58,597 nucleotides of DNA from Chthoniobacteraceae bacterium (GCA_031409335.1 JANNWY010000042.1:1-58597); one strand, 5' to 3'; shown: positions 2,670 through 40,413, counted from the stretch's first letter. The notes: generated by a model from the letters alone, not told the origin. Made by a program: numbers and translations.

Positions 2670-4878
2670 GGGCACGGAGCGGCGGACGCTTGCCCGCGGA
2701 GTCTTTGCGGCGTGGCTTTGCGCGGGGTCGGCGGGCGCGGCGGATGTGGCCGTTCTTTCCCAGGAACTCGGAGCGGCAAACGTCGCGGTGCGGCGCGATG
2801 CGGCATACACGCTCAATCGGATGGGAGTGGAGGCGAAGGCGGCGCTCCCGGCGTTGATCCGCGCGCTTGGCGATGCCGACAAGCAGGTCTGGTCGTTTTC
2901 GATCTCGGCGATCGCAAATCTCGGCCCCGATGCGAAGGATGCGATTCCGGCGTTGATCGACGGGCTTGGCAGTTCGCGAGCGCGCGGGCGGGAGCGGGAT
3001 CGGCGGCAGTCTGTGACGCGCGCCGCGTTTGCGCTTTCGCGGATCGGCGCGGCGGCGGTCCCGGCACTGAGCGATGCGCTGAAGTCCGACGATGACGGCC
3101 AGCGGGCCGGGGCGGCGCAGGCGCTCGCGGGAATGGGCGGCGCGGCGGCACCCGCGATTCCCGCTTTGATCGAAAATCTGAAGGGAGCCGATGAAGTCCG
3201 CCAGGAAAGCGCGGAGGCGCTGGGTGCGATCGGCGTGGCGGCGGTGAAGCCGCTGATCGATGCGGTGAAGTCGGCCGATGCGCGGGAGCGTGCCGGTGCG
3301 GTGATGGCGCTCGGGTTTGCGGGAACTGTGGCGAAGGAGTTTGCGCCGACGTTTCTCGAACTGCTGAAAGCGGAAGGCGATCCGCAGGTGCGGGTCGCGC
3401 TGCTGTCCGCGATTCCGAAATTCGCGATCCCTCCAGAGGAAGCGGCGCCTTTGCTCGCAGTCGCGATCAAAGACGATGACGAGCAGGTGAGGCACGCGGC
3501 GATCAATGCGCTGGTGCCGTTGCGTGGGGCTCGAGAACTCGCGCTCCCGGCACTTTCCGCGATGTTGAAGGACGAAAGCGCCACCATTCGGCAGCGTGCC
3601 GCGCGGGCGCTGGGACGGATGGGACCGGGCGCGGCGCAGGCGGTGCCGGCACTGATCGAGGCCGGGAAATTGTCGCCGGGAGATGCGTCGATTGCCGGGG
3701 CGCTTTCGGAAATCGGGCCAGCGGCGCTGCCGGCGCTGCTCGCGCAATTGCGCGATGCCCCCGCGCCGGATGCCGAGCGACTTTTCGGGCTTTTGCGCGG
3801 ATTCGGTGCGCCAGCGGTGCCGGTTTTGAAGGAAGCGATGAAGCATCCGGCGTCGGAAGTGCGCGCCTCGGCGGCGCGGACGCTGGGCGGGATGGGGAGC
3901 GATGCGAAGGGTGCCGTCGAGTTGCTGTTTGCGCAGGCCACCGATGCGGATGCGCGCGCCCGGGCCGCGGCGTTGCGTGCGCTGGTGGCCTTGGAAGCGG
4001 ATTCGCAGCGTTTGAAACCGACGCTCGAATCCGCGCTGAAGGATTCCGCGCCCGAAGTGCGCCGCGCGGCTGCGGCGGGTCTCGCGGGTTCCGGCGGTGG
4101 CAATGGACTCGGAGTGGCGGGTCTCGTTGATTTGCTCGACGACGAAAACGCCGCGAGCCGTCGTTCCGCGGTCGATGAACTCGGTAAGATGGGCGCGCCG
4201 GCAGCGGCTGCACTGCCAGCGTTGTTGGAACGGCTGACAGATCCGGAACTTCAATTGCCCGTGATTTCCGCGATCGGAAAGATCGGCCCGGCGGCGTCGG
4301 CGACTGTTCCACGGCTGGTCGAGTTGACCGCGGGCGGTGCGGTGCCGCAGCGCGTGGCAGTGCTGGCTGCGCTGGCCGGGATTGGGAAGACAGCCTCGGC
4401 GGCGCTTCCGCTCGTCCATGCCGCGGTGAAGGACGACGAGGGCGACGTGCGCGTCGCTGCCGTGTCGGCGGTGGCGGCGATCGAGAGCGATGAGTCGAAA
4501 GTGATCGCGATCCTCGTGGAGGCGCTGGCGGATCAGAGCGGACGCGTCCGGCGTCCGGCTGCGGCGGCATTGTCGAAATTTGGCGAGCGTGCCCGCGTTG
4601 CGACGCCGGGATTGGTGTCGATGCTGGAGCGGGACAACGAGCGCGGAGTGGCGCTGCTGGCGATGAAGGTGATCGGGGTCCGTTCCGTGCCGGATTTACT
4701 GCGCGCGCTCACCATGCGAGAGCCGCAGGTCCGGGTCTTTGCGTGTGAACAACTGGCGAGTCTTGGAGCGGAGGCAAAGGAAGCGATCCCGCGTCTGAAG
4801 GAGCTTTCAGAAGGTCAGCCCAAAGCCGTCGAGGAAGCCGCGCGCGGTGCGCTGGCGAAGATCGAGTCAACGCCGTAA
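2662..4878 (+). CDS. HEAT/PBS-lyase repeat protein, probably exported
   Basis: Many 'A.PAL..AL.D....VR..AA.ALG' repeats. The ATG at 2662 overlaps the DUF1552 stop; the start is approximate. Confidence 0.85.
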   Translation: MRRGTERRTLARGVFAAWLCAGSAGAADVAVLSQELGAANVAVRRDAAYTLNRMGVEAKAALPALIRALGDADKQVWSFSISAIANLGPDAKDAIPALIDGLGSSRARGRERDRRQSVTRAAFALSRIGAAAVPALSDALKSDDDGQRAGAAQALAGMGGAAAPAIPALIENLKGADEVRQESAEALGAIGVAAVKPLIDAVKSADARERAGAVMALGFAGTVAKEFAPTFLELLKAEGDPQVRVALLSAIPKFAIPPEEAAPLLAVAIKDDDEQVRHAAINALVPLRGARELALPALSAMLKDESATIRQRAARALGRMGPGAAQAVPALIEAGKLSPGDASIAGALSEIGPAALPALLAQLRDAPAPDAERLFGLLRGFGAPAVPVLKEAMKHPASEVRASAARTLGGMGSDAKGAVELLFAQATDADARARAAALRALVALEADSQRLKPTLESALKDSAPEVRRAAAAGLAGSGGGNGLGVAGLVDLLDDENAASRRSAVDELGKMGAPAAAALPALLERLTDPELQLPVISAIGKIGPAASATVPRLVELTAGGAVPQRVAVLAALAGIGKTASAALPLVHAAVKDDEGDVRVAAVSAVAAIESDESKVIAILVEALADQSGRVRRPAAAALSKFGERARVATPGLVSMLERDNERGVALLAMKVIGVRSVPDLLRALTMREPQVRVFACEQLASLGAEAKEAIPRLKELSEGQPKAVEEAARGALAKIESTP

Positions 4879-4919: not shown

Positions 4920-5705
4920 TTACTTGTTCGGATTCTCGTTCTCTTCGGTCGATTTGCCCCAGATGATGTCACCTGGTTGTACCGGCCATTTGAATTGGCC
5001 ATTTTCCTCAAGGATGTCTTTTCCTTCGACCAATTCCGCGTGGCCATCCACAAAAGTCAGATACCCGAACCCGTTGTAACGGGCCGCAAACGATTTTGCA
5101 CTGCCCTTGGGGCTACCATCGTATTTCGGCTGTTGGGGCATCGCCTTTTTATCGTTCTTCAGACCCTGTTCGAGGAATAGAACGGTTCGTCCTGGGTTCG
5201 CAATTTGAGACAGCCGGGCGGATTTCTCATCCCCATTTTCGTTCTTCCGTTGCAGCTTGGTATTGATCGCAATCGCGAAGAGGGGTGAAGCGAGCTTTTT
5301 ATCAGACTCTGGATACTCCGCAGCAGGAAGGAAGAGGATGTTTTCGCGCGAATAGAAGGCCAGTGGATTGGACGCGTATTGCGCGACGCTTTTCTGGTTT
5401 AGGATCACTGGCAGCGCGTTGTACCACGCCTTGGCATTTTCCGGCAGCGCTGCCGCAGCCCAAGTGTCCGTGCCTTTCGCATCCTCCGCTGGCAGCAAAT
5501 TGTCGTTCTGCGAACTATACGCGCCCGCAGCCGAGCCCAAGCTCTGCATATTCTTCAACGCCACTACTCTATGCGCGCGGTTTTGCATCGTGGCGATGAC
5601 CGGGAACGCGATCGCGGCCAGCACGAGGATGATGGCGATGACAACCAAGATTTCCATGAGCGTGAAGCCCATGGAGCGGCGGGAGGTCGAAGAATTAGTT
5701 TTCAC
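4920..5705 (-). CDS. Prepilin-type N-terminal cleavage/methylation protein with H-X9-DG-like C-terminal motif
   Basis: GFTLMEILVVIAIILVLAAIAFP type IV pilin N-terminus; RY...GYLTFVDGHAE near the C-terminus. Confidence 0.85.
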   Translation of the reverse strand: MKTNSSTSRRSMGFTLMEILVVIAIILVLAAIAFPVIATMQNRAHRVVALKNMQSLGSAAGAYSSQNDNLLPAEDAKGTDTWAAAALPENAKAWYNALPVILNQKSVAQYASNPLAFYSRENILFLPAAEYPESDKKLASPLFAIAINTKLQRKNENGDEKSARLSQIANPGRTVLFLEQGLKNDKKAMPQQPKYDGSPKGSAKSFAARYNGFGYLTFVDGHAELVEGKDILEENGQFKWPVQPGDIIWGKSTEENENPNK

Positions 5706-5728: not shown

Positions 5729-6457
5729 TTAGTCTGTCGCGAGGACGCGATTTGGGGCGGTGGAACTCAGCATGACACGGTTGTTGCCGTTGAGTTGCTG
5801 GATGGCAGCGACGAACTCTCCGGGTTTCTTGGTGTCCTTCAGATGAATATTATATCGCAACTCCGTCATCATTCCAGCCTGAATTGATTCCACCGAAAGC
5901 AGATCGAAGTCGTGCAAAAACTTCACGAATGTCTCGCGGAAAACCATGTCGTAATCGATGTCATTCGTCACCCGGACGCGGAGCCGGTGCGAGGCGCGCT
6001 GGGGGGCGAAAAGATCGGCGCTGGAGAATATATAGACGATCGCGCAGATGATGATGGTGGTGGTCGAAGCCAGCACATAGGCACGCGCGCCGACGCCAAG
6101 CCCCGCAGCCATCGCGAGGAAAAGAAAGCCAATGTCCCGCGACTGCGACACGCTCGTGCGAAATCGGATGATCGAGAACGCCGCGAAAATTCCGAACGCG
6201 GTGGCCTGTGCCATCGCCGGATTGGGATCGAAGCGCACGACCATGACGATGACCGAAACCACCGTGCCGAGGATGAGCAGCGAATGCACATAATCCTGGG
6301 TGAACTCGCTGCCCCGATAGGTGGCGCGGTAAACCGCCGCGATGAGCAGATTAAGGAAAAAGCTCAACAAGAGCGCGAAGATGATCTCTTGAAGCGGTGC
6401 GACGGGTTGGGACAGGCCGAGGGCTTGGTTTATGATTTGGTAGAGATCGTTCATCAA
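5729..6457 (-). CDS. DUF4956 membrane protein (VTC-associated)
   Basis: Hydrophobic helices; AFGIFAAFSIIRFRT...RDIGFLF motif; adjacent to the VTC gene. Confidence 0.85.
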   Translation of the reverse strand: MMNDLYQIINQALGLSQPVAPLQEIIFALLLSFFLNLLIAAVYRATYRGSEFTQDYVHSLLILGTVVSVIVMVVRFDPNPAMAQATAFGIFAAFSIIRFRTSVSQSRDIGFLFLAMAAGLGVGARAYVLASTTTIIICAIVYIFSSADLFAPQRASHRLRVRVTNDIDYDMVFRETFVKFLHDFDLLSVESIQAGMMTELRYNIHLKDTKKPGEFVAAIQQLNGNNRVMLSSTAPNRVLATD

Positions 6458-6501: not shown

Positions 6502-7347
6502 TTACGACGCAGCGGCGATCGGGGCCGGGCCGGAGTCCGGGGCCGCATTCACGCCGGCCGCGGCCAGTGAATCCGGCGTCAGGCCGTAGTGATGCTTGAT
6601 CATGCGCCCGCCGATCTGCCGATGCAGGATGGCGTCGCCGTCTTCGAGCGCGTTGTTGTACTTGCTGTGACTTTGCAAGATGCAGTGATGCTTCCCGATC
6701 ATCTGCGTGAGCCAGTAGGGCACCGTGCCAGTGACTTTCACCTCCATGACGGAATAGCCGTCCGGCAGCAGGAAATGCTCGAAGCGGCGATCATCGGGAA
6801 CGACGTGCAAGTTATCGAAGCGATACGCGATTCCGGTATCGAACGTGACCCGCAAATCCGATTCCGGATCCCGATCCGCGAAAGCGTGGCGGTCGTAGCG
6901 CATCGCGCAGCACGGCACGAAATGCCGCTCGTTCACGAGCGTGTGAATTTCCTCGACGAGCCTGCGGTCGAGAACCTTCGCGCGTGGCGCAATGTCGCGA
7001 CCGGCGGAGACTTCGTAGGCTTCATCCAGCGTGCAAAGCAACCGGCGCTTCACGCCGCGCCCATCGCACTTGTGCTTGATCTCGACAAAAATCGTCGGCG
7101 GCAATTTGCCGTCCTGACTCCCGTAAACCCGCACCCGCATCTTTCGCCGGTTCTGATACTGCTCGACCTTCTCCCAGTAGCACGCGCGCTCCAAGCTGTC
7201 GTAGTAAAGGCTCACGATCGGGTAGAACGCGCCGTCCACCGCATTCTCGTCCGCTTTCATCCGCGGCGTCGTATCCTGCTCCAGTGCCTCACGCTGTTCG
7301 CGCGTGATGACGAATTTCATTTCAAATCGGTCGAGTCGATAGCTCAA
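6502..7347 (-). CDS. VTC (polyphosphate polymerase)-domain protein
   Basis: RFEMKF, SLYYDS, RRKMRVRVY, FVEIKHK, YDRHAF, LRVTFD, VMEVK and SKY motifs. Confidence 0.88.
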   Translation of the reverse strand: MSYRLDRFEMKFVITREQREALEQDTTPRMKADENAVDGAFYPIVSLYYDSLERACYWEKVEQYQNRRKMRVRVYGSQDGKLPPTIFVEIKHKCDGRGVKRRLLCTLDEAYEVSAGRDIAPRAKVLDRRLVEEIHTLVNERHFVPCCAMRYDRHAFADRDPESDLRVTFDTGIAYRFDNLHVVPDDRRFEHFLLPDGYSVMEVKVTGTVPYWLTQMIGKHHCILQSHSKYNNALEDGDAILHRQIGGRMIKHHYGLTPDSLAAAGVNAAPDSGPAPIAAAS

Positions 7348-7459
7348 GAGTAGGGGAATTTGAAGAGGACGGGAAAAAACGAAGCGGTGTAATGACGATG
7401 CGCCAACAAAATTGCAACCGTGAAATATTGCGAAAATGTCACAAACTCATGACCTGCGT

Positions 7460-9598
7460 CTATTCGCCGCCGAAGAACTTCTTAAACGACCGGAAGATAC
7501 TCTGCGGGACCGAGCGCTTTGGCTTTGCCTCCGTCAGCGCCCCGCCGCGATGCACCGAGCACAAATCGCGGGGCATGCACGAAGGCGGCAGGTCGATCAT
7601 ATAAGATGCATCCGCATGGATGCACGCCTCGGTCGCCAGTTCGTTTGAAATCGCGCACACGCCGACGCGCCGCACGTTCGCGGGTTGCGGAAAAGCGTTC
7701 GCCGGATACCGCGCCGCCGGTGCGGCCTTCATCACGTCCACCCAGATCGGCAACGCAAGCGCCGCGCCGGATCCCTTCGGCACGATCGTCTTCGGCGTAT
7801 CCAGCCCGACCCACACGCCGCACGTCAGGCTCGTCGTGTATCCGACGAACCACGCGTCCACATAGTCATTCGTCGTCCCCGTTTTACCCGCCGCCGGTTT
7901 TGCAAAACCCATCTGCCGCGCGCTCGCTGCCGTCCCTTTCTCGATCACCTTGCTTAAAATACTCGTCGTCATCCACGCCACTCCCGCATCCATCGCCGGG
8001 CGCGAAATATGGGCCGCGCGATAAATGGTCTCACCGCTCGCATCGTCGATCCGCTCGATCAAATACGCCTGCCGCCGCACCCCGCCATTCGCCAGCACCG
8101 TGTAAGCCGCCGTCAGATCCCGCACCGTCGCCTCGAATGTCCCCAAATAAATCCCCGGAATTTGCGGCACATCCGCCAGCCCCGCCTCGCCCGCCAGTTT
8201 CGCGATCGCGGGCAAACCCGCGCGCTCGCCGATCCGCACACTCATCGTATTGCGCGAAAGGATCAGCCCCTCGTCCACCCGCAGCACACCCTTGTTCGAC
8301 CGATCCGAATTATCCGGCGTCCAATCCGGCGCGCCCTTCACCTCGCCGCGCCCCAGCGGCGCATCCGACACCGTCGCCCCCGGCAGCATCCCACGATCAA
8401 ACGCCGCCGCGTACACGAACGGCTTGAACGTCGAGCCCACCTGACGCTTCGCCATGAACGCCCGGTTCAGCTTACTCTCCGCATAGTCCCGCCCACCCAC
8501 CAGCGCGCGGATGCCCCCGCTCCGATTGTCGATCGCCACCAGCGCGCCCTGCAAATACGGCGTCGGCAATTCCTCCTCCTTCGCCTCCTGCGAGAAGTCC
8601 GCCCGCCGCGGATGCCCATAGCCCGCGCGCGATTCCACCTTCCGCAGCTCCCCATCCATCGCCGCCTCCGCCGGTCGCTGCACCGCCGGATCGAACGTCG
8701 TGTAAATCTTCATCCCGCCCTCCGCCCGCTGCTCATCCGTCAGCAGGATGTTCAGCTCCCGCTCCACCGCATCCATCGCGTAGTTTTCATGCACCAGCGC
8801 CACCCGTTTTCCCGCCACGCCCAGCCGCGCTTCCTGCGCCACGCGCGATTCCGCATCCGTGATTTTCTCCAGCTTCACCATCCGCGCCAGCACCTGATCC
8901 CGCTGCTTCAGCGCCCCCTTCAGATTGGTGAAAGGCGAAAAGTAAGATGGCGCGCGCACGATCCCCGCGATCATCGCCGACTCGCCCAGCGTCAGCTTCG
9001 ACGCACTTTTTCCAAAGTACGAAAGCGACGCCGTCTCGATCCCATATCCACCCGGCCCGAAATAAATCCGGTTCATGTAATGATCGAGGATTTCCTCCTT
9101 GGAATACGCCTGCTCGATCCGCAACGCCACGAACGCCTCCAGCAGCTTCCGATGCAGCGTCTTCCCCCCGAGCGGGAAAGAATTCCGCGCCAGTTGCTGC
9201 GTGATCGTGCTCGCCCCCTCCGACGCTTTCCCGCGCGAAAAATTCCGCACCAACGCCCGCGCGATCCCCACCGGATCGATCCCCCGGTGCCGGTAAAATC
9301 GCGAGTCCTCCCGTGCAAGCAGCGCGTCCTTGAAATTCCGCGCCACCGCATCCCCCGGCACCACGATCCGATTCTCGCCCGCCAGCCGCGAAAAAATCTT
9401 CCCGTCCATGTCGAACACCGTCGAGCGCTCCCGCATCTGCTTCACATCCTCCAGATTGAAAGTGGAAGCCCACATCGCATACACCACGCACACTGCCGCA
9501 AAAATCAGAAACGCCCCGATCAGCGCGCGCAGCCACCAGCGGCGGTGGGGACGCGATTTGTTGCGTCGGGTAGATTTGGATTTGCGGGAACTAGCCAA
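7460..9598 (-). CDS. Class A penicillin-binding protein (PBP1A family; transglycosylase + transpeptidase)
   Basis: EDSRFYRHRGID and GASTITQQLARN (TG); GSTFKPF (SxxK), SRN, KTGTTN (TP). The TTG start is approximate; the ORF track start at 9835 overlaps a divergent gene. Confidence 0.93.
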   Translation of the reverse strand: MASSRKSKSTRRNKSRPHRRWWLRALIGAFLIFAAVCVVYAMWASTFNLEDVKQMRERSTVFDMDGKIFSRLAGENRIVVPGDAVARNFKDALLAREDSRFYRHRGIDPVGIARALVRNFSRGKASEGASTITQQLARNSFPLGGKTLHRKLLEAFVALRIEQAYSKEEILDHYMNRIYFGPGGYGIETASLSYFGKSASKLTLGESAMIAGIVRAPSYFSPFTNLKGALKQRDQVLARMVKLEKITDAESRVAQEARLGVAGKRVALVHENYAMDAVERELNILLTDEQRAEGGMKIYTTFDPAVQRPAEAAMDGELRKVESRAGYGHPRRADFSQEAKEEELPTPYLQGALVAIDNRSGGIRALVGGRDYAESKLNRAFMAKRQVGSTFKPFVYAAAFDRGMLPGATVSDAPLGRGEVKGAPDWTPDNSDRSNKGVLRVDEGLILSRNTMSVRIGERAGLPAIAKLAGEAGLADVPQIPGIYLGTFEATVRDLTAAYTVLANGGVRRQAYLIERIDDASGETIYRAAHISRPAMDAGVAWMTTSILSKVIEKGTAASARQMGFAKPAAGKTGTTNDYVDAWFVGYTTSLTCGVWVGLDTPKTIVPKGSGAALALPIWVDVMKAAPAARYPANAFPQPANVRRVGVCAISNELATEACIHADASYMIDLPPSCMPRDLCSVHRGGALTEAKPKRSVPQSIFRSFKKFFGGE

Positions 9599-9731
9599 GG
9601 GTGAAGCGGGCAATCTCAAACACCACTGCCCGCGCTCCAAGAAGAAAGAAACGAGGTCAACCTCGCGCTCCGCTTCCGACCAAATCGCATTCGCTGGCGC
9701 TCGCCGACGACTCGGCCATATCATTCCCACC

Positions 9732-10343
9732 ATGCTGCCGACCCTCCTCAACCGCACCACCTTCCTTTCCCTCCTTCTCGTCCCCGGATGCGCCACCGAC
9801 AGCCGCGCCGAGCAGTTCGTGCTCTTCGACGTCACCTTTCCCTACACCAAAGCCGACGCCGACAACGCCAAGCCCAGCCAGTCGCACTACTACGTCAAAA
9901 GCGACCGCCTCAACGCCGAGCGACCGAAGGACTGGACCGCCCCCGTGGACTACCGCAACGGCACCGTCCATGTGCGCCTCGAAGTCATCGAGAAACCCGC
10001 AGGCAGCAAGCCCACCACCTGGAGCGTCTGTTACATCCCTTACAAGGGGCAGAACAAGGGCTACGGCTGCCTCGGCATCAGCGCTTACAAGGAGCCCGGT
10101 GTGCATGAACAGGACATCGCCATGACAAAGTTCTGGCAAAACAACGACATCGTCTGGAGCGAAGGCATCAAGCAAATGGACCTCGTCCTCAAGGACGGCA
10201 CCGGCACCAAAGCCCACACCCGCCCCGACCCCGAGAAGTTCTTCCCCACCAAGATCCGCCTGACCCTCATCCAAGTCTCCGCCGGGGCGAAATACGATCC
10301 GACACTGGTGCCGAATCTGCCGGCGGCGGGTGAGAAGAAGTAG
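9732..10343 (+). CDS. Hypothetical exported protein / lipoprotein
   Basis: Hydrophobic N-terminus ending LLVPG-C; strong coding-like codon bias; no family recognised. Confidence 0.7.
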   Translation: MLPTLLNRTTFLSLLLVPGCATDSRAEQFVLFDVTFPYTKADADNAKPSQSHYYVKSDRLNAERPKDWTAPVDYRNGTVHVRLEVIEKPAGSKPTTWSVCYIPYKGQNKGYGCLGISAYKEPGVHEQDIAMTKFWQNNDIVWSEGIKQMDLVLKDGTGTKAHTRPDPEKFFPTKIRLTLIQVSAGAKYDPTLVPNLPAAGEKK

Positions 10344-10347
10344 GCGG

Positions 10348-10467
10348 ACGCACGAGGAACCGCACCAGCGACTCCTTGTCATCGGGCTCATTGGAAAGAT
10401 CGGTCAAAACCACGACGCGGGGCCGGAGATCGTCTGTTTCGAAGGCTTCCGGCACCGCCCGCATCAA
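10348..10467 (-). pseudogene. N-terminal fragment of a DUF1593 (nucleoside-hydrolase-like) gene
   Basis: RPRVVVLTDLSNEPDDKESLVRFLV matches the DUF1593 N-terminal signature. Similarity ends at the stop of the convergent gene. Confidence 0.7.
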
Positions 10468-10468
10468 T

Positions 10469-11074
10469 TCAACGTGGAAACCATTCGCGGAGCTGATTCC
10501 GCATTCTAATAAAGGCGCTGTCCGCGCATTTCGATAGGCTGATTTTTTCCGCTATCCGCTGATAGAGAGCGGATGACCTCGGTGTTCCGGCAACCTTCAA
10601 AGCCGCCTCTATAGCCTCCTTTGGGCGGGTGGGCTTGTCGTTCGCATCGAAAGTGTAGCCTGCATCGCGAAGCCATTCTCGAAGGCGCTTTCCTGAACGC
10701 CATTCGATTACTTCCTCAACAGCGTTGTCTGAGCCCCAAATCCACACGTCAACTTCGGGTTCGATCACCACCGACTTAGCTGCGCTTTGCCAGGTCGCTT
10801 TCAATCGCGAATCCAGCTGCATTTCCAGTGCTTCGGCGTTCGGCCGGTCGCTGCCACACCCCTCAAAATCTAATACCAATAGCGCTTTCTTGAATCGACG
10901 ATGCTCCCGGGCCAACGCGTCGGGGCCAGTTTTTCGAACACCGCCGTCCCGTCCTGGATGGACGCGAAACTCAAAGTCGATCGGAGCGATTCCAAGAGCC
11001 TCCGGTCTTCCCAATGCACCTTTTAGTGCAAAATGGGCATTCTGGTCCGCAACCAACAGAACAAGATCTTTCAT
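10469..11074 (-). CDS. mad4: MAD4-like protein (partner of the ATPase; TOPRIM/DUF4276-like)
   Basis: MKDLVLLVAD...RPEALGI..HPGRDGG..LVLDFEGCG..PEVDVWIW..PKE..PRSSALY..C.D.AF, recalled as the MADS MAD4 family; not searched. Confidence 0.7.
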   Translation of the reverse strand: MKDLVLLVADQNAHFALKGALGRPEALGIAPIDFEFRVHPGRDGGVRKTGPDALAREHRRFKKALLVLDFEGCGSDRPNAEALEMQLDSRLKATWQSAAKSVVIEPEVDVWIWGSDNAVEEVIEWRSGKRLREWLRDAGYTFDANDKPTRPKEAIEAALKVAGTPRSSALYQRIAEKISLSKCADSAFIRMRNQLREWFPR

Positions 11075-11082
11075 TCTCTGAG

Positions 11083-12348
11083 TTAGCTAAGAATTCCCAT
11101 CGCGAACAACACTCCCAAGTCGGGCTCGCCCTTTTTCCAATCCCGAAGTGCTGGGTGTCGGTCGCCCGACACAATGTCCGTCGCGCCTGCTGCGTCTTTG
11201 GCGAAGCAAAGCACGTCGCGCGGCTCTAGCATGTTCAACGCAACCGGGCTGTGAGTCGCCACGAGCACCTGACTTCGATATATTGAGGACAGGGATTGCA
11301 AAACTGTCTCTATCGCGCGGGGATGAATTCCGTTCTCTGGCTCTTCAATAAGGAACGTGCCTTCCAAGTCAGGTAGATACGTCGGAATAGTGAGTGCCAG
11401 CAGGCGCAACGTTCCATCGGAGGCAAGCCACGAGGGAACCTTAGCTCCGTTAGAATACTCGATGATGAGGTATCGGTGTTTGTCCTCCGGTCTCTCGAAT
11501 GTATCTATATCCTTGACGTCTTCTAACGCCGTCTGCACATGCGCGAGCCAAGCGTAAAAGCGCTTCTCGTTCTTTCGCAACTCCGCAATTACCCAGGGCA
11601 GATTCGACCCGTCGGTTTGGAATCGCTGGCGCAAGCCGGGAGGACTGGGCTGCTTGATCACTTGACTGTTTAATACGAACGTCTGAACACCCTTCTCCAA
11701 GAGATCGCGAAACCAACTGCTGACCGGGAAACTATCTGTATCTGCGGGAAGATTGGCGAGCGCGGATTTGCCTCGCCCAAGCTTGAATGACGGCGTGTAG
11801 GAGGGACGTCCCTCAGGATAGAAGTTGTCATTTCCGCCCGGCGCTTTCGTCACTGCTGCGTTCCGGCCTTTTTGCGAACGGATTTGGCTCACAATGGAGT
11901 GCAACTCTGTTTGAGGCGCAGGGAAGAAATCCGGCTGAACAACGGGCTTCTCGACGTCTGGCTCCATCAGCCAAAGGGTTTCGTGATCGAGGCCAATTTC
12001 ATTGGTTGCATCCTCCAGCCCAATCCGAACCTCGTAGCGCACTCGCGAAAATCGCTGTTTTTCGTCAGCCATGAGCTTCTTTACGGTTGTCGGAATCTCA
12101 GCCTCGACAGCAAGTTCGAACGATCGGCCGGCCCCCATCCATACGAGCTTCTCGAAATCCTTGCTCCGCTTCTGAACTGTCTCAATGACCTCGCCCCGGT
12201 TTCTCGCGAGTTCCCCAAGGAATCCAATCACATCCAAAAATGTTGTCTTGCCGCTGGCATTCGGGCCGACGAGCGCGCGGAATGGTCCCAGCGCCTGATC
12301 CACTGACTTTAGGCAGCGAAAGGAACTGGTTTGAATGCGCGTAAACAT
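11083..12348 (-). CDS. mad3: AAA_21/ABC-type ATPase, MAD3-like
   Basis: Walker A GPNASGKT; signature SDGTLRLL; Walker B/D-loop LIEEPENGIHP; H-loop ATHSP. GC is lower than in the flanks. Confidence 0.8.
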   Translation of the reverse strand: MFTRIQTSSFRCLKSVDQALGPFRALVGPNASGKTTFLDVIGFLGELARNRGEVIETVQKRSKDFEKLVWMGAGRSFELAVEAEIPTTVKKLMADEKQRFSRVRYEVRIGLEDATNEIGLDHETLWLMEPDVEKPVVQPDFFPAPQTELHSIVSQIRSQKGRNAAVTKAPGGNDNFYPEGRPSYTPSFKLGRGKSALANLPADTDSFPVSSWFRDLLEKGVQTFVLNSQVIKQPSPPGLRQRFQTDGSNLPWVIAELRKNEKRFYAWLAHVQTALEDVKDIDTFERPEDKHRYLIIEYSNGAKVPSWLASDGTLRLLALTIPTYLPDLEGTFLIEEPENGIHPRAIETVLQSLSSIYRSQVLVATHSPVALNMLEPRDVLCFAKDAAGATDIVSGDRHPALRDWKKGEPDLGVLFAMGILS

Positions 12349-12444
12349 AATTAGGACGATGGCCGATTGCTGCTCAGGCGACAATACCTTGTGAAGGTGT
12401 GTTGAATTTTGCGTGAGCCGCAGGATACGCGAGCCGGGCAGCAC

Positions 12445-13275
12445 TCATCGCTGATTATTGAGGCAAGCGCCGCCGAGCGAACCCACCACCTCATCCAGCA
12501 GCGGCGCTTCCATTTCCACCAGATGCCCTCTCTCGGGGAAGCGGCCTTCATTCACATCGGCGATGTACTCGCGGAAGGCGGCGAGGCGTTCCTGCTGGAG
12601 GCGGCGGTGTTCGGCGGCGAAGTTGCGGTAGGCTTTGGCGTGGCGCGGCAGGCGTTCGTCGTAGTCGCCGAGGATGTCGTCGGAGAAGAGGAACTGGGTG
12701 TCGCAGCCGGAGCCGGAGCCGAGGGACATGAGGAGCATCTTCGTCTGCGATGAAAGGAAGTGCGCGAGGTTGTGCGGGACGACTTCGAGTTCCGCGGCGT
12801 AAGCGCCGGCGTTTTCCAGCTCCTTCATTTTGTGGCAAAGCTGAGTGGCTTCCTCGACGGTGCGGCCGATCGCGCGGTAGCCAGTCCAGGTGACATGCCG
12901 CGGGACCATGCCGAGATGCCCGACGACGGGGATGCACTCGCGCGCCATGGCTTCGATGATGAACGGGCTGGCCGAGCAATAGACGCTACTCGCGCCAAGT
13001 TCGAGGGCGCGGAAGGCGACGCGGATCGCCTCCTCCGGCGAGGCGAGGCCGTGCGGTGTGGCGCACGAGAGAAAGCTATTGGGTGCGGCGGCGACGAGCG
13101 CGGGCAGACGCGCCTGCGCTTCGGGGCCGTCGAAGCTGCAACTCATCAAATCCACGCCGGCCTCTTCCGCGGCGGCGGCTTCCTCCGGGGATTTGACGTG
13201 AATGTGCGTGAGCACGCGTTTGCCCTTGAGCTGCTGGAGGTCGAAGACGGTATATTTTTTGCGCGCGCGGAGCAT
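12445..13275 (-). CDS. Divergent ketopantoate hydroxymethyltransferase (PanB-like)
   Basis: IPVVGHLGMVP..TGYRAIGRT, LENAGA...LEVVP, GSGSGCDTQFLFSDDILG, PRHAKAY and G.FP motifs. The canonical LVGDS motif is missing. Confidence 0.8.
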   Translation of the reverse strand: MLRARKKYTVFDLQQLKGKRVLTHIHVKSPEEAAAAEEAGVDLMSCSFDGPEAQARLPALVAAAPNSFLSCATPHGLASPEEAIRVAFRALELGASSVYCSASPFIIEAMARECIPVVGHLGMVPRHVTWTGYRAIGRTVEEATQLCHKMKELENAGAYAAELEVVPHNLAHFLSSQTKMLLMSLGSGSGCDTQFLFSDDILGDYDERLPRHAKAYRNFAAEHRRLQQERLAAFREYIADVNEGRFPERGHLVEMEAPLLDEVVGSLGGACLNNQR

Positions 13276-13357
13276 GACGCTCACAGCACTATGAAAACCG
13301 GAGTTTGAACTCAACCGCCATCCGCCCTTTTGCCGGAGCCATTTCCAGAGAAGAAAA

Positions 13358-13449
13358 TGGCGGAAGGGGTGGGATTCGAACCCACGGTGCCTTTAACAGC
13401 ACGTTCGATTTCGAGTCGAGTGCCTTAAACCGGACTCAGCCACCCTTCC
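13358..13449 (-). tRNA. tRNA-Ser(CGA)
   Basis: GGAAGGGTGGCTGAGTCCGGTTTAAGGC...anticodon loop CT-CGA-AA, long variable arm, GGTTCGAATCC T-loop, encoded CCA end. Confidence 0.95.
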
Positions 13450-13621
13450 GTTTTGCGTCGGAACTATGTGCGGAGATTTCGGGCTGGCAAGCGGGAATTC
13501 CGCGATGCTGCCGCAGGGAGTGATGTTTGTTTTCCATGGAATGGAAATGCTGAACGGTAATTCGCAGCGGCAGCGGTGTGTCGGATGCGTCGTTTTGTCA
13601 GTCGTCCGTGCGAGCAGCAAA

Positions 13622-16048
13622 TCAGCGCGGCGGGACAGTGTCGGCGCGGATCGTCGTTGGGGCGGCGGGTTGGGGAAGTGGCGGGAGCCCGTTCACCGTG
13701 ACGGCGAGTTTTTCCGCCACGGGCGTGATCGGTTTTTTGTCGAGGACCTTGCCGCGGCCGACCACAGCGACGCTGCGCGGCTGGCTGGCTTCGGGAACGT
13801 TGACGTGAAACTTGTTCATGTAGCGGCCGCCGAGGCGCGAGTTGGCGAGGCGGAAACGCAGCACGCCGGTGCGCGTCTCGACCTGCAGCTCGCAGTCGGA
13901 AGCGTTCAAGGTGCTGCTGTCGTCGGCGTAGCAAAAGCCGTAGGCACCGTGCAACGCGGGGTAGATGTAAGTCGGCTGCTGCCCGGCCGGATCGTAATAG
14001 CCAACGAGCGTCACCACCGGCACGCCGAAGAGGTGCGGCTTGCGTTCGAGGCCGCGCTCCGCGGCGGCACCTTCGTTCCAGCGTTTGCCGTCGGAGGTGT
14101 AGCTTTTCTTGAAGCCGCGCGTGACGTTCACCTTCTGGCCGTTCAGCAGCAGCGCGCTGGCGTAGCTGGCGTCGTGATCGATCGCGACGACGCGGCCGCG
14201 ATTCGCCGCCGAGGCGGCGGGAAGCGGAATGTCGCGGGTCCAGTTGCCATCGCCCATCGCGACCGTCACCACGTCGTTTTCGGCGAGCAGCGCCGCGAGC
14301 CTGGCTTCGTTGAGTTCCTTGATCGGCGCGCCCTTCTCGCGCCTGACCTCGACGCTGTGGCGGTAAGGTTCCATCCGTGCGGTGCTCTCGTTCCATTTGC
14401 TGAAGCCGGTCGGCGAGCTGGCGTCGAAGACGGCTTTGCTCTCGAGGAAACGCTGGATGATCGCCGCCGAGTTCGGCGTGTAGAGCGTGAAGCGGTTGAA
14501 GCCCGAGAACGGCGCGCCGCTCGCCATGGCGTCGAGGCCGAAGGAGCGACCGTCGAACGGCGGCTGGCATTCCTTTTCCACACACGTCTCCTTGCCGCTG
14601 CGGGTCGGGGCGAAGTTCGGAATGAAGCGCGCTTTGTCCGCGTCCCAGCCCCATGTGGAATTGATCTGGTCGGCGGGGCGATGCACCGAGCCTTTGAAGC
14701 CATCGACGTAATGCCCGAGGCCGTAGTTGTGCCCGACCTCGTGGCTCAGCTCGTTGCCGATCGACTCGTCGAGCGTCACGATCCCGCCGCCGCCGGAGCC
14801 GCCATGCACCTGAATGCCGTTCGAATATTTCCCGCGGTTATTGTGTGCCGCGAGTTGGGCCACGACGTAAGGGTGGCCTTTCTCGCCCTGGCCGGACGTG
14901 CTGTTCAGCCCGTAGTTCGCGTTGTCGATGCCGTGCGAGATCAACTCCTTGCCAATGCTCTGGCGCATGTTGCCGGTGTGCCAGCCGCCTTCGCTTTCAT
15001 CGAGATCCTTGAGCAGCGTGCCCGTCGGCATCATCACTTCGCTGAGCGAAAGCGGCGCGTATTGCGCCACGATGAGGCGGCTCGTCGGCACGGTCTGGAA
15101 ATACTCGCGATGCGCCTCGGCATCTTTGGCAAAAGCGAACGCGCCGCGCGGCGTGGTGAGCATGCCGACATCGATCGTGTGAATGAGCAGCTGCGTCGGC
15201 GCGCCGACTTTCAGCCCGGTGAGTTCGCCCGTGAGATTGCCCTGGCGAATCTGGAGCGAAAAGCCGGGCACGATCCACTCCGCCGCGAGCCCGCCGCTCC
15301 ACGCGTCGGTCGCGTAGGTGATCGCATTGTTCTCGAGATCGCCGTCGCGAAACCACTGCCCATTCGCGCACTTAAACTCCAGCGTCTGCCCGCGCGCCAG
15401 CGCCACCTGCCGACCGCTGTAATAGATCGTCGAGCCGTAGCCCGCCTGCGACTTCGCCCGCACCATTTTTCCGTCGAGCGCCTTGTCCTGCGGCAGGTAA
15501 ATATCACGCACCCACTGACCGTCCGCAGTCTCGATCTCGACCAGCGCTTTGTCTTTCAACTGGCTCAACAAAAACGCGCCGCTCTTGTCGCTCAGCTTTT
15601 CCAAATCGCCCCGCGCGCGCACCGTGCCGGTGGAACCGACCGGCGGAGTGAAATCGATCCCGCCTTCCGGCGCGCCATCCACCGAGTAGGCAGTCTTCGG
15701 CAGCAGCCTCGGCGGATTGAGATTCAACGTGCCGACCGGCTTGCCCTGGGCATTGAGCACGACCACCGACATGGGCGTTTTGTCGTCGGCCTTCAGCGGC
15801 CGGACCAGCAGCAGGCTTTTGCGCAAGCTCGTGAGATGCGGCTGATTGTCCCCCGCGCGCGGATGCGCCGGGAGAATCTGGCTCTGGGCAAAAAGCACCT
15901 GCGCCGTGAGCGAACCCGTCAGATCGTTGACCGGATTCGTCGTGTTAAAAACGAGTGGCGGAGCGGCGTGCAGCGGACAGCGCGAGGGTCCGGCGAGAAT
16001 TGCGGCAGTCAGCAAACTGGCGAGCGGGAGGAGATGTTTGGTGATCAT
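13622..16048 (-). CDS. Secreted M66-family zinc metalloprotease (StcE/TagA-like)
   Basis: Signal peptide; FAQSQI; HREYFQT.P.SRLIV; metzincin motif HEVGHNYGLGH; WGWD; C-terminal GVPVVTLVGYYDP...IYPALHGAYG. Confidence 0.88.
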   Translation of the reverse strand: MITKHLLPLASLLTAAILAGPSRCPLHAAPPLVFNTTNPVNDLTGSLTAQVLFAQSQILPAHPRAGDNQPHLTSLRKSLLLVRPLKADDKTPMSVVVLNAQGKPVGTLNLNPPRLLPKTAYSVDGAPEGGIDFTPPVGSTGTVRARGDLEKLSDKSGAFLLSQLKDKALVEIETADGQWVRDIYLPQDKALDGKMVRAKSQAGYGSTIYYSGRQVALARGQTLEFKCANGQWFRDGDLENNAITYATDAWSGGLAAEWIVPGFSLQIRQGNLTGELTGLKVGAPTQLLIHTIDVGMLTTPRGAFAFAKDAEAHREYFQTVPTSRLIVAQYAPLSLSEVMMPTGTLLKDLDESEGGWHTGNMRQSIGKELISHGIDNANYGLNSTSGQGEKGHPYVVAQLAAHNNRGKYSNGIQVHGGSGGGGIVTLDESIGNELSHEVGHNYGLGHYVDGFKGSVHRPADQINSTWGWDADKARFIPNFAPTRSGKETCVEKECQPPFDGRSFGLDAMASGAPFSGFNRFTLYTPNSAAIIQRFLESKAVFDASSPTGFSKWNESTARMEPYRHSVEVRREKGAPIKELNEARLAALLAENDVVTVAMGDGNWTRDIPLPAASAANRGRVVAIDHDASYASALLLNGQKVNVTRGFKKSYTSDGKRWNEGAAAERGLERKPHLFGVPVVTLVGYYDPAGQQPTYIYPALHGAYGFCYADDSSTLNASDCELQVETRTGVLRFRLANSRLGGRYMNKFHVNVPEASQPRSVAVVGRGKVLDKKPITPVAEKLAVTVNGLPPLPQPAAPTTIRADTVPPR

Positions 16049-16160
16049 TGGCGGCGGTCGAAAGCTGGCGAGATTGCATCTCACCAGTGCCATCGCCAGA
16101 CTTAATTTCGCGCTCCACTTCCCGCATTTCTCTCGCGTCAGGGCGCGCTGACGCAGCGCG

Positions 16161-16448
16161 CTATTTCTCCGCCTTCCGCCGCACCCCACGCGAATCGCTC
16201 TCGCGTTCCCAATACCGCATCGGCTCCTCGAAGCACGTCCCCGACAAATCCTCGACCGCCCGCCGCAGAAACTTCTGCGCATCCTCCACGCCCAAATTGT
16301 TAAGCAGCGGCCCGATCTCCTTCAGGAAATATTCGAGGACAAACCCGGCCCGCACCTCGCTCCACTCCGCATCCAATTCCTCCGCCGCAAACCGCCGCGG
16401 CGACCCAACGATTTCAGCCTTCTGTTCCTTGGCGACATTCCGATTCAT
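16161..16448 (-). CDS. Small hypothetical protein
   Basis: 95-aa ORF from ATG 16448, co-oriented with its neighbours; no family recognised. Confidence 0.45.
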   Translation of the reverse strand: MNRNVAKEQKAEIVGSPRRFAAEELDAEWSEVRAGFVLEYFLKEIGPLLNNLGVEDAQKFLRRAVEDLSGTCFEEPMRYWERESDSRGVRRKAEK

Positions 16449-16542
16449 GCCCGCGAGCACGTCGCTCCCGTTCCCGTCTGCGAAGGAGAACTTCGCCTTC
16501 GCGCGCGTTCCCAAACGCAAATGGGACGGAGGAAGTGGACGG

Positions 16543-17403: not shown

Positions 17404-17469
17404 TCAACTATTAATCCATTTTGGCTTTAGCCCAAAATGGCCTGCCAAGTCTTACAGATCCGTGCCCTA

Positions 17470-19755: not shown

Positions 19756-19902
19756 GTGTGCAATGAGGGGCGGGATGATGGGCAGCCAAATCGCGGAGTC
19801 AATCCGCACCGCGCAATTTCACCCGGCCTGCATTCCGCGTCGCGAGCGAGGGTGTGGGACACAGTTAGGTCCACCCCGGACCATCGGCGCACCGCATCCG
19901 CT

Positions 19903-40092: not shown

Positions 40093-40413
40093 CTACACCC
40101 AGTCCACACACGGATCGGTGCGGCCTTCGCGCTCATCGAGTCGCTGCCAGTACGGCGCGGAAAGAGGCGCGCACGACTCCACCTGCCCCCATCGAAACCA
40201 TGATCGGAAAGCGTGATACGCGGGCGATTGCGGAATCGGGAAGCGGTCGAAAACGTGTTTCCAACCGCGCATCTCGCGCACCGCTTCCGCTTCCGGAACG
40301 ACCCCGAAATCCCACGCGCCGCAGAGCCGGTGAATGTAGTCCGCCTTGTCCTCGTTGGTCGGCAAATCGTCCGGCGGTTCGACATCGGGATATACGCTGT
40401 GGTCGATGATCAT
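40093..40413 (-). CDS. Hypothetical protein coupled to the upstream small ORF (possible antitoxin/partner)
   Basis: 106-aa ORF with an ATGA overlap with 40410..40664. Confidence 0.6.
   Translation of the reverse strand: MIIDHSVYPDVEPPDDLPTNEDKADYIHRLCGAWDFGVVPEAEAVREMRGWKHVFDRFPIPQSPAYHAFRSWFRWGQVESCAPLSAPYWQRLDEREGRTDPCVDWV

What the first reader, a model, noticed from the sequence alone, without database searches (positions are those of the whole stretch)
7900..13300. Strand C/G skew flips across the accessory insert, independent of gene direction
Seen (hand counts, + strand): left of the low-GC ATPase insert the DNA is C-rich in both a minus-strand gene (8701-8760: 25 C vs 11 G) and a plus-strand gene (9721-9780: 31 C vs 5 G). 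Right of it the DNA is G-rich (12601-12660: 29 G vs 14 C), although that gene has the same orientation as the PBP gene. So synonymous codon choice in core genes follows position relative to the insert, over kilobases. The same C-left/G-right polarity recurs at other variable spots in the window (see the 15300-20100, 26400-28800 and 40093-40664 findings). Inference: either a mutational footprint of repeated break, resection and repair at insertion hotspots, or selection so that any transcript heading into the hotspot is C-rich/G-poor (Rho rut-like) and gets terminated. Either would be a poorly described way of marking or insulating plasticity sites.
Basis: partly seen in the sequence, partly recalled or inferred. 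Interest (0 to 1): 0.75.

Follow-up and report, generated by a model that had tools for sequence, protein, structure and literature searches.

The report
Genome-wide synonymous G/C skew sawtooth
The C-to-G strand flip across the defence-gene insert is real at synonymous codon sites, but the same polarity occurs at gene boundaries all over this genome, so it is likely a lineage-wide compositional imprint and not a mark of insertion hotspots.

Summary
The flip survives restriction to fourfold-degenerate sites. Coding-strand skew is PBP +0.67 (99.85th percentile), the lipoprotein-like gene -0.57 (0.6th) and the panB-like gene -0.41 (3.9th). The plus-strand jump across the insert is 1.05, and only 2 of 4348 gene boundaries reach that.

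It is not specific to the insert. Genome-wide, plus-strand synonymous skew forms a sawtooth, with sharp upward (C-left/G-right) jumps and gradual declines. Steps of 0.8 or more: 107 up, 19 down. The cause is a 5'->3' fall of G3 relative to C3 inside ORFs (73% of 2061 genes). On top of this lie kb-scale patches that keep one DNA-strand polarity across oppositely oriented neighbours.

Low-GC3 islands show no larger jump (0.146±0.039) than ordinary boundaries with gaps over 50 nt (0.10-0.11).

The pattern is strong in this genus, weak in the family and absent in a more distant relative. Orthologue skews correlate within the genus (r=0.59) but not beyond it (r=-0.01).

The insert is a MAD3/MAD4 defence-gene pair lying between two convergent 3' ends.

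The mechanism is unresolved. I favour an inherited strand-asymmetric mutational imprint plus an ORF-anchored co-transcriptional effect.

The parts
7460..9835 (-). Class A penicillin-binding protein gene. The start is uncertain; the conserved part is 7460-9400. Its synonymous sites are extremely G-rich on the coding strand.
   Evidence: Pfam Transgly 2.1e-58 and Transpeptidase 3.3e-25. s4 +0.67, n=403, 99.85th percentile. The same-genus orthologue has +0.53; ten orthologues from other genera range from -0.31 to +0.17.
9732..10343 (+). Lipoprotein-like ORF with a signal peptide ending in Cys. It is divergent from PBP and shares PBP's DNA-strand polarity, so its coding strand is C-rich.
   Evidence: No Pfam or NCBIfam hit. 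Nearest Atlas clusters are hypothetical proteins, commonest phylum Planctomycetota, score 0.94. s4 -0.57, n=92, 0.61st percentile.
7201..10500 (.). Skew patch: the plus strand is C-rich at fourfold sites across a minus-strand and a plus-strand gene.
   Evidence: 600-nt windows give -0.44 to -0.80. Raw GC skew is -0.24 to -0.30.
10469..11074 (-). MAD4-like gene, the small partner of the ATPase. It has low GC3 and is skew-neutral.
   Evidence: NCBIfam NF047734 antiphage_MADS4, 190.9 bits against a cut-off of 160. PADLOC mad4 3.8e-4. GC3 0.54.
11083..12444 (-). It is skew-neutral.
   Evidence: NCBIfam NF047739 antiphage_MADS3, 476.6 bits against a cut-off of 420. PADLOC HEC-01A 1.1e-41 and mad3 9.8e-29. 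Pfam AAA_21 3.8e-29. GC3 0.62, s4 +0.03.
12445..13314 (-). Divergent ketopantoate-hydroxymethyltransferase-family gene ('panB-like'). Its coding strand is C-rich and it converges on the lipoprotein-like gene.
   Evidence: Pfam Pantoate_transf 3.6e-34. It falls below the NCBIfam panB cut-off (92 vs 207 bits). s4 -0.41. Same-genus orthologues have +0.05 and +0.18 in other neighbourhoods. Found in 4 of 19 genomes searched, G000 included.
13358..13449 (-). tRNA-Ser(CGA) between the panB-like and M66 genes.
   Evidence: ARAGORN. Very high metagenome word depth at 13318-13551.
12301..15000 (.). Skew patch: the plus strand is G-rich at fourfold sites. It decays rightwards and changes sign inside the M66 gene.
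   Evidence: +0.33 to +0.46 at 12301-13200, +0.10 at 14701-15300, -0.30 at 15301-15900.
13622..16282 (-). M66/StcE-like metallopeptidase gene. It shows the intragenic fall from G3 (5') to C3 (3').
   Evidence: Pfam Peptidase_M66 8.6e-78, StcE_b-sandwich and TagA. Profile.

Best explanation
The flip is real. It is an extreme local case of a genome-wide pattern at synonymous sites, and it likely reflects a lineage-specific strand-asymmetric compositional imprint and not anything done by or for the insert.

Shown: two components add up at this locus.

(1) An ORF-anchored polarity. Inside ORFs the coding strand goes from G-ending to C-ending codons 5'->3'. As a result, every kind of gene boundary tends to be C-left/G-right on the plus strand, which gives a sawtooth.

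(2) Patches of 2-6 kb that keep one DNA-strand polarity across genes of either direction.

The insert (MAD3/MAD4) sits between the 3' ends of two convergent, C3-rich genes. It lies next to the PBP/lipoprotein patch, one of the most skewed in the genome. The insert itself is compositionally young and skew-neutral.

Inferred: the patch component is probably a DNA-level mutational imprint. The data fit an asymmetry in C->T versus G->A transitions under strong pressure for G/C-ending codons. This imprint would be inherited with the DNA in this genus and reshuffled by rearrangement, so polarity breaks would fall at rearrangement and insertion junctions. The ORF-anchored component is probably co-transcriptional or co-translational. 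Its cause is not resolved.
For: Locus values. Jump of 1.05, reached by 2 of 4348 boundaries.

Heterogeneity: gene s4 variance is 0.046 against a sampling variance of 0.0057.

Sawtooth: step skewness is 0.34 (p about 1e-37). Peaks of 0.8 or more number 107 up and 19 down, and 86 of the 107 up-peaks lie at gene boundaries, which make up 34% of the genome. Boundary jumps of 0.8 or more: 26, against 3 at -0.8 or below.

ORF gradient: skew is +0.13 to +0.15 near the 5' end and -0.17 to -0.20 near the 3' end in long genes. 73% of 2061 genes fall 5'->3'; 560 have z<-2 and 62 have z>2. Only codon position 3 shows this; positions 1 and 2 are flat.

Mean jumps are convergent +0.166, divergent +0.138 and tandem +0.119, with +0.081 at gaps of 10 nt or less.

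Strand-coherent patches: correlation of coding-strand skew between neighbours is +0.35 (same strand), -0.30 (divergent) and -0.14 (convergent). This holds under strict gene filters and falls to about 0 by 6-8 kb. Intergenic skew follows the flanks (rho 0.21, p 1e-11).

Nucleotide-level effect: all 8 fourfold codon families shift in parallel. Log-odds shifts match at 2-fold and 4-fold sites, and A4/T4 are unchanged.

Not translational selection: s4 is uncorrelated with GC4 (rho 0.004). L2 has +0.01 and EF-G +0.02.

Lineage-specific and inherited: orthologue s4 correlation is r=0.59 with same-genus G004 (n=58). Split by synteny it is 0.58 (syntenic, n=42) and 0.63 (non-syntenic, n=16). It is r=-0.01 with G006 (n=121) and r=0.17 with G024 (n=42). 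In G004 the PBP gene lies in a domain of 20 kb or more with one polarity across both gene directions. G024 has gene s4 SD 0.11 and no ORF gradient.

Islands are not special.
Against: If the cause were purely mutational, neutral DNA should share it. Average 3'UTR and 5'UTR skew is about 0. The intergenic response is about one fifth of that at fourfold sites. The slope at position 1 is only 0.045. AT skew at fourfold sites does not co-vary with GC skew (rho -0.02).

G000 shows no contig-scale skew from which such an imprint could derive. Contig means have SD 0.075.

The panB-like orthologues at 83-85% identity do not share the skew, which fits context dependence better than inheritance.

The ORF-anchored resets, even at overlapping genes, are hard to obtain from a DNA-level process.

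The size of the jump at this locus is about 2.8 SD above the mean for convergent boundaries. The generic components do not fully predict it.

Gene calls come from a crude home-made caller (4966 genes, 85% of bases). The genome is a metagenome-assembled draft. The relatives' samples are small and the genomes are kin.
Confidence: 0.55

Rival explanations
1. Reader's hypothesis 1. Repeated breakage, resection and repair at an insertion hotspot leaves opposite strand-biased mutations on its two sides.
For: The jump across the insert is among the largest in the genome (2 of 4348 reach 1.05). Islands have a higher mean jump than the skip-one-core-gene control (0.146 vs 0.060, p=0.024). Synteny breaks just upstream of PBP in all 11 relatives examined.
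Against: Islands do not differ from ordinary boundaries with gaps over 50 nt (0.10-0.11). Strong jumps occur at overlapping or 2-nt-spaced genes. PBP's skew is shared by G004, which has other neighbours. By textbook reasoning, deamination of the 3' tails left by resection would give G-left/C-right, the opposite sign. No insert-free form was seen in 4 runs.
Confidence: 0.06
2. Reader's hypothesis 2, generalised. Selection keeps transcripts C-rich and G-poor (rut-like) towards ORF 3' ends so that Rho terminates them, and keeps them G-rich near 5' ends to avoid premature termination.
For: The last 600 nt or so of ORFs is C-rich at synonymous sites. Strong upward jumps are most frequent per boundary at convergent (33/769), then tandem (48/3184), then divergent (5/696) boundaries. 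Jumps are smaller inside operons. The effect is confined to synonymous sites. Two Rho paralogues are present.
Against: 3'UTRs, where C-richness would cost nothing, have a skew of -0.02 to -0.04. 5'UTRs are not G-rich. Gene-level patches keep DNA-strand polarity, not transcript polarity. There is no conservation between genera. G024 also has Rho but shows no gradient. The scale of 600 nt or more exceeds that of typical rut sites (recalled).
Confidence: 0.15
3. Translational selection. C-ending (and GAA/AAA) codons are optimal, and selection for them grows along ORFs and differs among genes.
For: The pattern is ORF-anchored and synonymous-only. C over T at NNY sites and A over G at NNR sites co-vary with C over G. 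EF-Tu has s4 -0.40.
Against: All codon families shift in parallel whatever their baseline. L2 (+0.01) and EF-G (+0.02) are not C-rich, and s4 is uncorrelated with GC4. Orthologue skews are uncorrelated across genera. Opposite-strand neighbours are anticorrelated. PBP at +0.67 lies far beyond any neutral baseline of 0.
Confidence: 0.08
4. Mosaic of inverted blocks in a genome with strong replication skew. Each flip would be an inversion breakpoint.
For: One-polarity domains of 20 kb or more cross both gene directions in G004 C300 and in G000 C275 and C319. Skew travels with orthologues that are no longer syntenic (r=0.63, n=16).
Against: The gene skew distribution is unimodal. There is no contig-scale equilibrium skew in G000. 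Flips occur inside genes. A mosaic would not give the up/down asymmetry.
Confidence: 0.12
5. Artefact: a chimeric metagenome contig, or chance in hand-picked 60-nt windows.
For: The genome is a 326-contig metagenome bin.
Against: Unitigs from two runs bridge both insert junctions with 0 differences. Kilobase windows and fourfold sites give the same result. The pattern is genome-wide.
Confidence: 0.02

Closest known systems
Replication-associated GC skew (leading strand G>C; recalled textbook knowledge)
   Same: The polarity belongs to a DNA strand and is independent of gene direction. A C-to-G upward jump has the sign of an origin.
   Different: The coherence length here is 2-6 kb, not a replichore. 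Contig means are about 0. There are hundreds of jumps, and fourfold AT skew does not co-vary. A relative, G024, shows the ordinary weak replichore pattern of about ±0.05.
GC skew at the 5' and 3' ends of human genes linked to R-loops (PMC3787257; I saw only the listing and the start of the abstract), and sawtooth 'N-domains' of skew in mammalian genomes (recalled)
   Same: Skew is anchored at gene ends. The shape is a sawtooth with sharp upward jumps and gradual declines.
   Different: This is a bacterium. The period is one to a few genes. The 3' ends are C-rich, not G-rich, on the coding strand. The effect is limited to synonymous sites.
Position-dependent codon usage in E. coli (PMC4069614; passages read)
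   Same: Synonymous codon choice depends on position in the ORF.
   Different: That paper fits each codon's usage with its own exponential decay in distance from the start codon (passages read). Here all G-ending versus C-ending codons shift in parallel, over 300 codons or more from both ends, with amplitudes up to ±0.7 in single genes.
Per-gene GC-skew sign used as a marker of gene inversion, and its critique (PMC6220195, PMC9098844; listing and abstract starts only)
   Same: Local departures of skew from the surroundings are read as history of the DNA.
   Different: Here there is no replichore background to depart from, and flips also occur inside genes.
Rho utilisation (rut) sites: C-rich, G-poor RNA (PMC6144790, PMC6407284; listing only)
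   Same: Transcripts are C>G towards ORF 3' ends.
   Different: The C-richness stops at the stop codon, spans 600 nt or more, and the gene-level patches ignore transcript direction.

Membership tests
Replication-strand GC skew | One sign over a whole replichore, flipping only at origin and terminus | tested here: not met
   Neighbour correlation falls to about 0 by 6-8 kb. 140 contigs of 20 kb or more have mean plus-strand skew -0.009, SD 0.075.
Replication-strand GC skew | Independent of gene direction | tested here: met
   Opposite-strand neighbours have anticorrelated coding-strand skew (-0.30 and -0.14).
Replication-strand GC skew | G>C accompanied by T>A on the same strand at free sites | tested here: not met
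   Spearman correlation of s4 with fourfold AT skew is -0.02. T does rise at NNY sites and A falls at NNR sites.
Transcription-associated strand asymmetry | Coding (non-template) strand G>C in transcribed genes | tested here: not met
   Mean coding-strand s4 is -0.03. The distribution is unimodal and spans -0.9 to +0.74.
Transcription-associated strand asymmetry | Strongest near the 5' end, decaying downstream | tested here: met
   +0.145 at codons 100-150, falling along the ORF.
Rho-dependent terminator (rut) region | C-rich, G-poor RNA upstream of the termination point, including untranslated RNA | tested here: inconclusive
   ORF 3' parts have -0.17 to -0.20 at fourfold sites, but 3'UTR skew is -0.02 to -0.04.
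Rho-dependent terminator (rut) region | Termination depends on Rho | not testable with these tools
   Rho_RNA_bind genes are present. No RNA run was listed.
Translational codon-optimality gradient | Preferred codons enriched in highly expressed genes | tested here: not met
   L2 s4 0.01, EF-G 0.02, EF-Tu -0.40. These genes differ mainly by low GC4, which is uncorrelated with s4.
MADS (methylation-associated defence system) genes, for the insert | MAD3 and MAD4 equivalog models scored above their curated cut-offs | tested here: met
   476.6 vs 420 bits and 190.9 vs 160 bits.
MADS (methylation-associated defence system) genes, for the insert | The other system genes (methyltransferase and the rest) alongside | tested here: not met
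   The flanks are the lipoprotein-like and panB-like genes. The rest of the genome was not searched for other mad genes.
Horizontally acquired island | Atypical composition and absence at the orthologous site in relatives | tested here: inconclusive
   GC3 is 0.54 and 0.62 against a genome median of 0.76. tblastn of these two proteins found nothing near panB-like in G002, G003 or G009, but those neighbourhoods are not syntenic. No insert-free joint was seen in 4 runs.

The most novel reading that the evidence does not exclude
In this genus every gene boundary acts as a small 'origin-like' skew source. A pervasive process that starts at ORF ends and runs outward leaves the outward 5'->3' strand G-rich for about 1 kb. 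Candidates are untranslated antisense or read-through transcription that forms R-loops, or dispersed R-loop-primed DNA synthesis. G-rich RNA favours R-loops, so the state would reinforce itself. That would explain the extreme, heritable, kb-scale patches in a bacterium that has almost no replichore skew.
Probability: 0.15. Interest if true: 0.75.

Novelty: new variant of a known kind. Interest (0 to 1): 0.45.

Why it matters
For this finding, the flip does not mark or insulate plasticity sites. It should not be used to locate insertion hotspots.

More broadly, this is a bacterial lineage with very little replichore skew. Yet its synonymous G/C choice swings between -0.8 and +0.8 over a few kilobases, with an ORF-anchored polarity. 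That is unusual.

It is a caution for methods that read per-gene GC skew as evidence of inversion, misassembly or replication direction.

If the cause is mutational, it would give a natural system for studying local strand-asymmetric mutation in bacteria. If the cause is selection on RNA, it would bear on how high-GC bacteria set transcript ends.

I found no bacterial description of this pattern in four literature searches. That is not proof that none exists.

Tried and rejected
- RNA evidence: no RNA holder was listed for 7000-14000, so transcription-based ideas could not be tested.
- Insert-free strains: contigs of 4 runs were laid on the stretch and no joint skips the insert.
The lipoprotein-like, panB-like and M66 genes are not next to PBP in any of 11 relatives. 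The three panB-like orthologues sit in other neighbourhoods.
- Common motif at strong jumps: none seen by eye in the 22 strongest boundary jumps, out of 86 boundary jumps of 0.8 or more. No formal motif search was run.
- Operon position as the cause of gene means: the effect is 0.05 or less.
- Lineage-specific loss of UDG, RNase H or Rho: not seen. UDG and Rho are present in 5 of 5 genomes searched. RNase H is present in G000, G004 and G006 and was not found in G008 or G024.
- Wrong-strand gene calls as the source of the opposite-strand anticorrelation: rejected. It persists with GC1-GC2 of 0.15 or more and n4 of 150 or more.
- A Pfam check of 75 random opposite-strand gene pairs was prepared but not run, because it would have needed very long typed input or many region fetches.
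- Earlier notes of this scan: nothing shown.

Full report
**What the window is.** The window is the whole of contig C42 of a 7.94-Mb draft with 326 contigs and 62% GC. DNA runs that hold the stretch are freshwater-sediment metagenomes, so the genome is a metagenome bin.

**Genes around the finding.**
- 4920-5705 (-): protein with an N-terminal methylation motif.
- 5729-6457 (-): DUF4956.
- 6502-7347 (-): VTC domain.
- 7460-9835 (-): class A PBP.
- 9732-10343 (+): lipoprotein-like ORF without a family.
- 10469-11074 (-): MAD4 equivalog.
- 11083-12444 (-): MAD3 equivalog, an AAA_21 ATPase. It also matches PADLOC HEC-01A.
- 12445-13314 (-): a divergent Pantoate_transf gene, below the panB cut-off.
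- 13358-13449 (-): tRNA-Ser(CGA).
- 13622-16282 (-): M66/StcE-like peptidase.

The 'insert' is therefore a two-gene defence-like module. It lies between the 3' ends of a convergent gene pair, lipoprotein-like (+) and panB-like (-).

**The observation.** The three hand counts are exact. Raw 1-kb GC skew is -0.24 to -0.30 over 7.5-10 kb and +0.12 to +0.14 over 12.5-14 kb.

Restricting to fourfold-degenerate sites removes amino-acid effects. Coding-strand skew (s4) is then PBP +0.67, lipoprotein-like -0.57, panB-like -0.41 and MAD3 +0.03. On the plus strand this reads -0.44 to -0.80 from 7.2 to 10.2 kb, across a minus-strand and a plus-strand gene. It is about 0 over the insert and +0.33 to +0.46 over the panB-like gene. 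It then declines and changes sign inside the M66 gene.

The three genes sit at the 99.85th, 0.61st and 3.85th percentiles of 4073 genes. The jump across the insert is 1.05, and 2 of 4348 boundaries reach that.

Unitigs from two runs bridge both insert junctions with no differences, so the junctions are not a chimera.

**Is it special to the insert? Method.** I called genes with a simple codon-model caller. It gave 4966 genes covering 85% of bases, with starts set at the longest ORF. I then analysed fourfold sites across the genome.

**Gene-level heterogeneity.** Gene s4 is unimodal with mean -0.03. Its variance is 0.046, against 0.0057 expected from sampling.

**The sawtooth.** Plus-strand skew forms a sawtooth. 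Differences between adjacent 100-site blocks are positively skewed (0.34, p about 1e-37). Peaks of 0.8 or more number 107 upward and 19 downward. Of the 107 upward peaks, 86 lie at gene boundaries, although only 34% of the genome is within 150 nt of a gene end or intergenic. Counts per boundary type are convergent 33/769, tandem 48/3184 and divergent 5/696.

**The ORF gradient behind it.** Inside ORFs the coding strand falls from G3 towards C3, 5'->3'.
- In genes of 800 codons or more, skew is +0.145 at codons 100-150 and -0.17 to -0.20 at 25-150 codons before the stop.
- 73% of 2061 genes of 1200 nt or more fall. 560 have z<-2 and 62 have z>2.
- Only codon position 3 shows it.

A 5'->3' fall in either gene direction reads as a decline along the plus strand. 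So every boundary type becomes C-left/G-right. Mean jumps are +0.166 (convergent), +0.138 (divergent) and +0.119 (tandem), with +0.081 where genes overlap or nearly touch.

I used low-GC3 gene runs flanked by core-like genes as a crude proxy for inserts.
- 78 islands give a mean jump of 0.146±0.039.
- A control that skips one core gene gives 0.060±0.010 (p=0.024).
- With the identical procedure, ordinary core-core boundaries give 0.011 (gap 10 nt or less), 0.048 (10-50 nt) and 0.099-0.110 for all gaps above 50 nt.

So inserts behave like any boundary between separate transcription units. The polarity is a property of gene ends, not of plasticity sites.

**A second component.** Gene means are not explained by the ORF gradient or by operon position (effect 0.05 or less). 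Neighbours share DNA-strand polarity whatever their direction. Correlation of coding-strand s4 is +0.35 for same-strand neighbours, -0.30 for divergent ones and -0.14 for convergent ones. This is unchanged under strict filters on gene confidence and decays to zero by 6-8 kb.

Adjacent 600-nt segments correlate at 0.64 within genes. Across tandem, divergent and convergent boundaries the values are 0.27, 0.26 and 0.125. The PBP/lipoprotein pair is an instance of this.

There is no contig-scale skew in G000. Contig means have SD 0.075. Two contigs, C275 and C319, do carry one polarity over about 20 kb.

**Nature of the signal.**
- All eight fourfold families shift G<->C in parallel, both between genes (log-odds span 1.3-2.1) and along ORFs (-0.19 to -0.50).
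- From the most C-rich to the most G-rich genes, G4 rises from 0.22 to 0.65 and C4 falls from 0.64 to 0.21, while A4 and T4 stay at 0.06-0.09.
- At two-fold sites G rises over A (0.40 to 0.65) and C falls against T (0.74 to 0.50), with the same log-odds change as at fourfold sites.

By my own reasoning this is what an asymmetry in C->T versus G->A transitions would produce if A/T-ending codons are strongly disfavoured.

The signal is not the translational-selection axis. s4 is uncorrelated with GC4 (rho 0.004). L2 and EF-G have s4 about 0, while EF-Tu has -0.40.

Three results count against a simple mutational reading. 5' and 3' UTR skews are about 0. Intergenic skew follows the flanks only weakly (rho 0.21, about one fifth of the fourfold response). 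Position 1 barely responds (slope 0.045).

**Comparison with relatives.** The PBP orthologue has s4 +0.53 in same-genus G004. In ten other genera it ranges from -0.31 to +0.17.

In G004 the PBP gene sits in a domain of 20 kb or more with one polarity across both gene directions, and with different upstream genes.

Orthologue skews correlate with G004 at r=0.59 (n=58). This holds about equally for syntenic pairs (0.58, n=42) and non-syntenic pairs (0.63, n=16). The correlation is r=-0.01 with G006 from another genus (n=121) and r=0.17 with G024 (n=42).

The panB-like orthologues in G002 and G003 (83-85% identity, other neighbourhoods) have +0.05 and +0.18, against -0.41 here.

The ORF gradient is -0.12 in G000, -0.07 in G004, -0.04 in G006 and -0.01 in G024. 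Gene s4 SD is 0.22, 0.26, 0.16 and 0.11 in the same order. G024 shows only an ordinary weak replichore pattern of about ±0.05.

The trait is therefore a derived feature of this genus, weaker in its family. The skew of a gene is not a conserved, function-linked property.

**Reading.** The flip across the insert is where two differently polarised blocks meet, at a convergent 3'-3' junction.

On the left is the PBP/lipoprotein patch. Its polarity is inherited within the genus. On the right is the panB-like/tRNA/M66-3' block, which shows the usual C3-rich 3' ends. The MAD3/MAD4 pair itself is skew-neutral and has low GC3, as young DNA would.

I favour a DNA-level, heritable, strand-asymmetric imprint for the patches, plus an ORF-anchored co-transcriptional or co-translational effect for the sawtooth. 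The mechanism of neither is shown.

A generalised Rho reading explains the ranking of boundary types, but it fails at the UTRs and on strand coherence. Break-repair at hotspots fails the island test. Translational selection fails on expression proxies and on orthologues. A pure inversion mosaic fails on intragenic flips and on the up/down asymmetry.

UDG, RNase H and Rho genes are present in G000 and show no genus-specific loss.

**Limits.**
- The gene caller is home-made.
- The genome is a draft metagenome bin.
- There are no RNA data.
- The relatives' samples are small (169-400 kb) and the genomes are kin.
- Islands were defined by GC3 only.
- Literature was checked by four searches. Only passages of one paper were read (PMC4069614). 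The others were seen as listings or abstract starts.

Noticed in passing
window 10469-12444: The 'ATPase insert' is a MAD3 + MAD4 pair. Both score above the NCBIfam equivalog cut-offs, and the ATPase also matches PADLOC HEC-01A. No other methylation-associated defence genes sit beside it, so it may be an orphan or minimal two-gene module.
   Followed up: partly
window 13358-13449: A tRNA-Ser(CGA) gene lies between the panB-like and M66 genes. The panB-like gene was found in only 4 of 19 genomes searched, G000 included. The stretch from the tRNA leftwards to the insert may therefore be a composite tRNA-side accessory region.
   Followed up: partly
window 13622-16282: An 886-aa M66/StcE-like metallopeptidase with StcE beta-sandwich and TagA lipoprotein domains, in a sediment bacterium. 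Its synonymous skew changes sign mid-gene.
   Followed up: no
G000 contigs C275 (21 kb) and C319 (23.5 kb): Unlike the rest of the genome, these contigs keep one plus-strand polarity throughout (means -0.39 and +0.28), across genes of both directions. C275 has long stretches where my caller found no gene.
   Followed up: no
window 25523-29614: A 1363-aa gene has several intragenic skew flips: +0.68, about 0, +0.41, -0.21, +0.66. This includes an upward jump at 28295 and a downward step at 26378. It may be mosaic or repeat-built.
   Followed up: no
window 9732-9835: The longest PBP ORF runs about 100 nt into the start of the divergent lipoprotein-like ORF. The true PBP start is probably further downstream. 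The transmembrane anchor begins near residue 100 of the long ORF.
   Followed up: no
G000 C160:54091-54303 and C33:58737-58946, and relatives: Each of the five genomes searched carries two Rho_RNA_bind-containing ORFs of different lengths (in G000, 598 and 450 aa).
   Followed up: no
window 1302-4878: Two plus-strand genes have high GC (up to 0.69) and strongly G-rich synonymous sites (s4 +0.60 and +0.38). One is a HEAT/PBS-lyase-repeat-like protein. They form the left, G-rich end of a decline that runs through to the PBP gene.
   Followed up: partly
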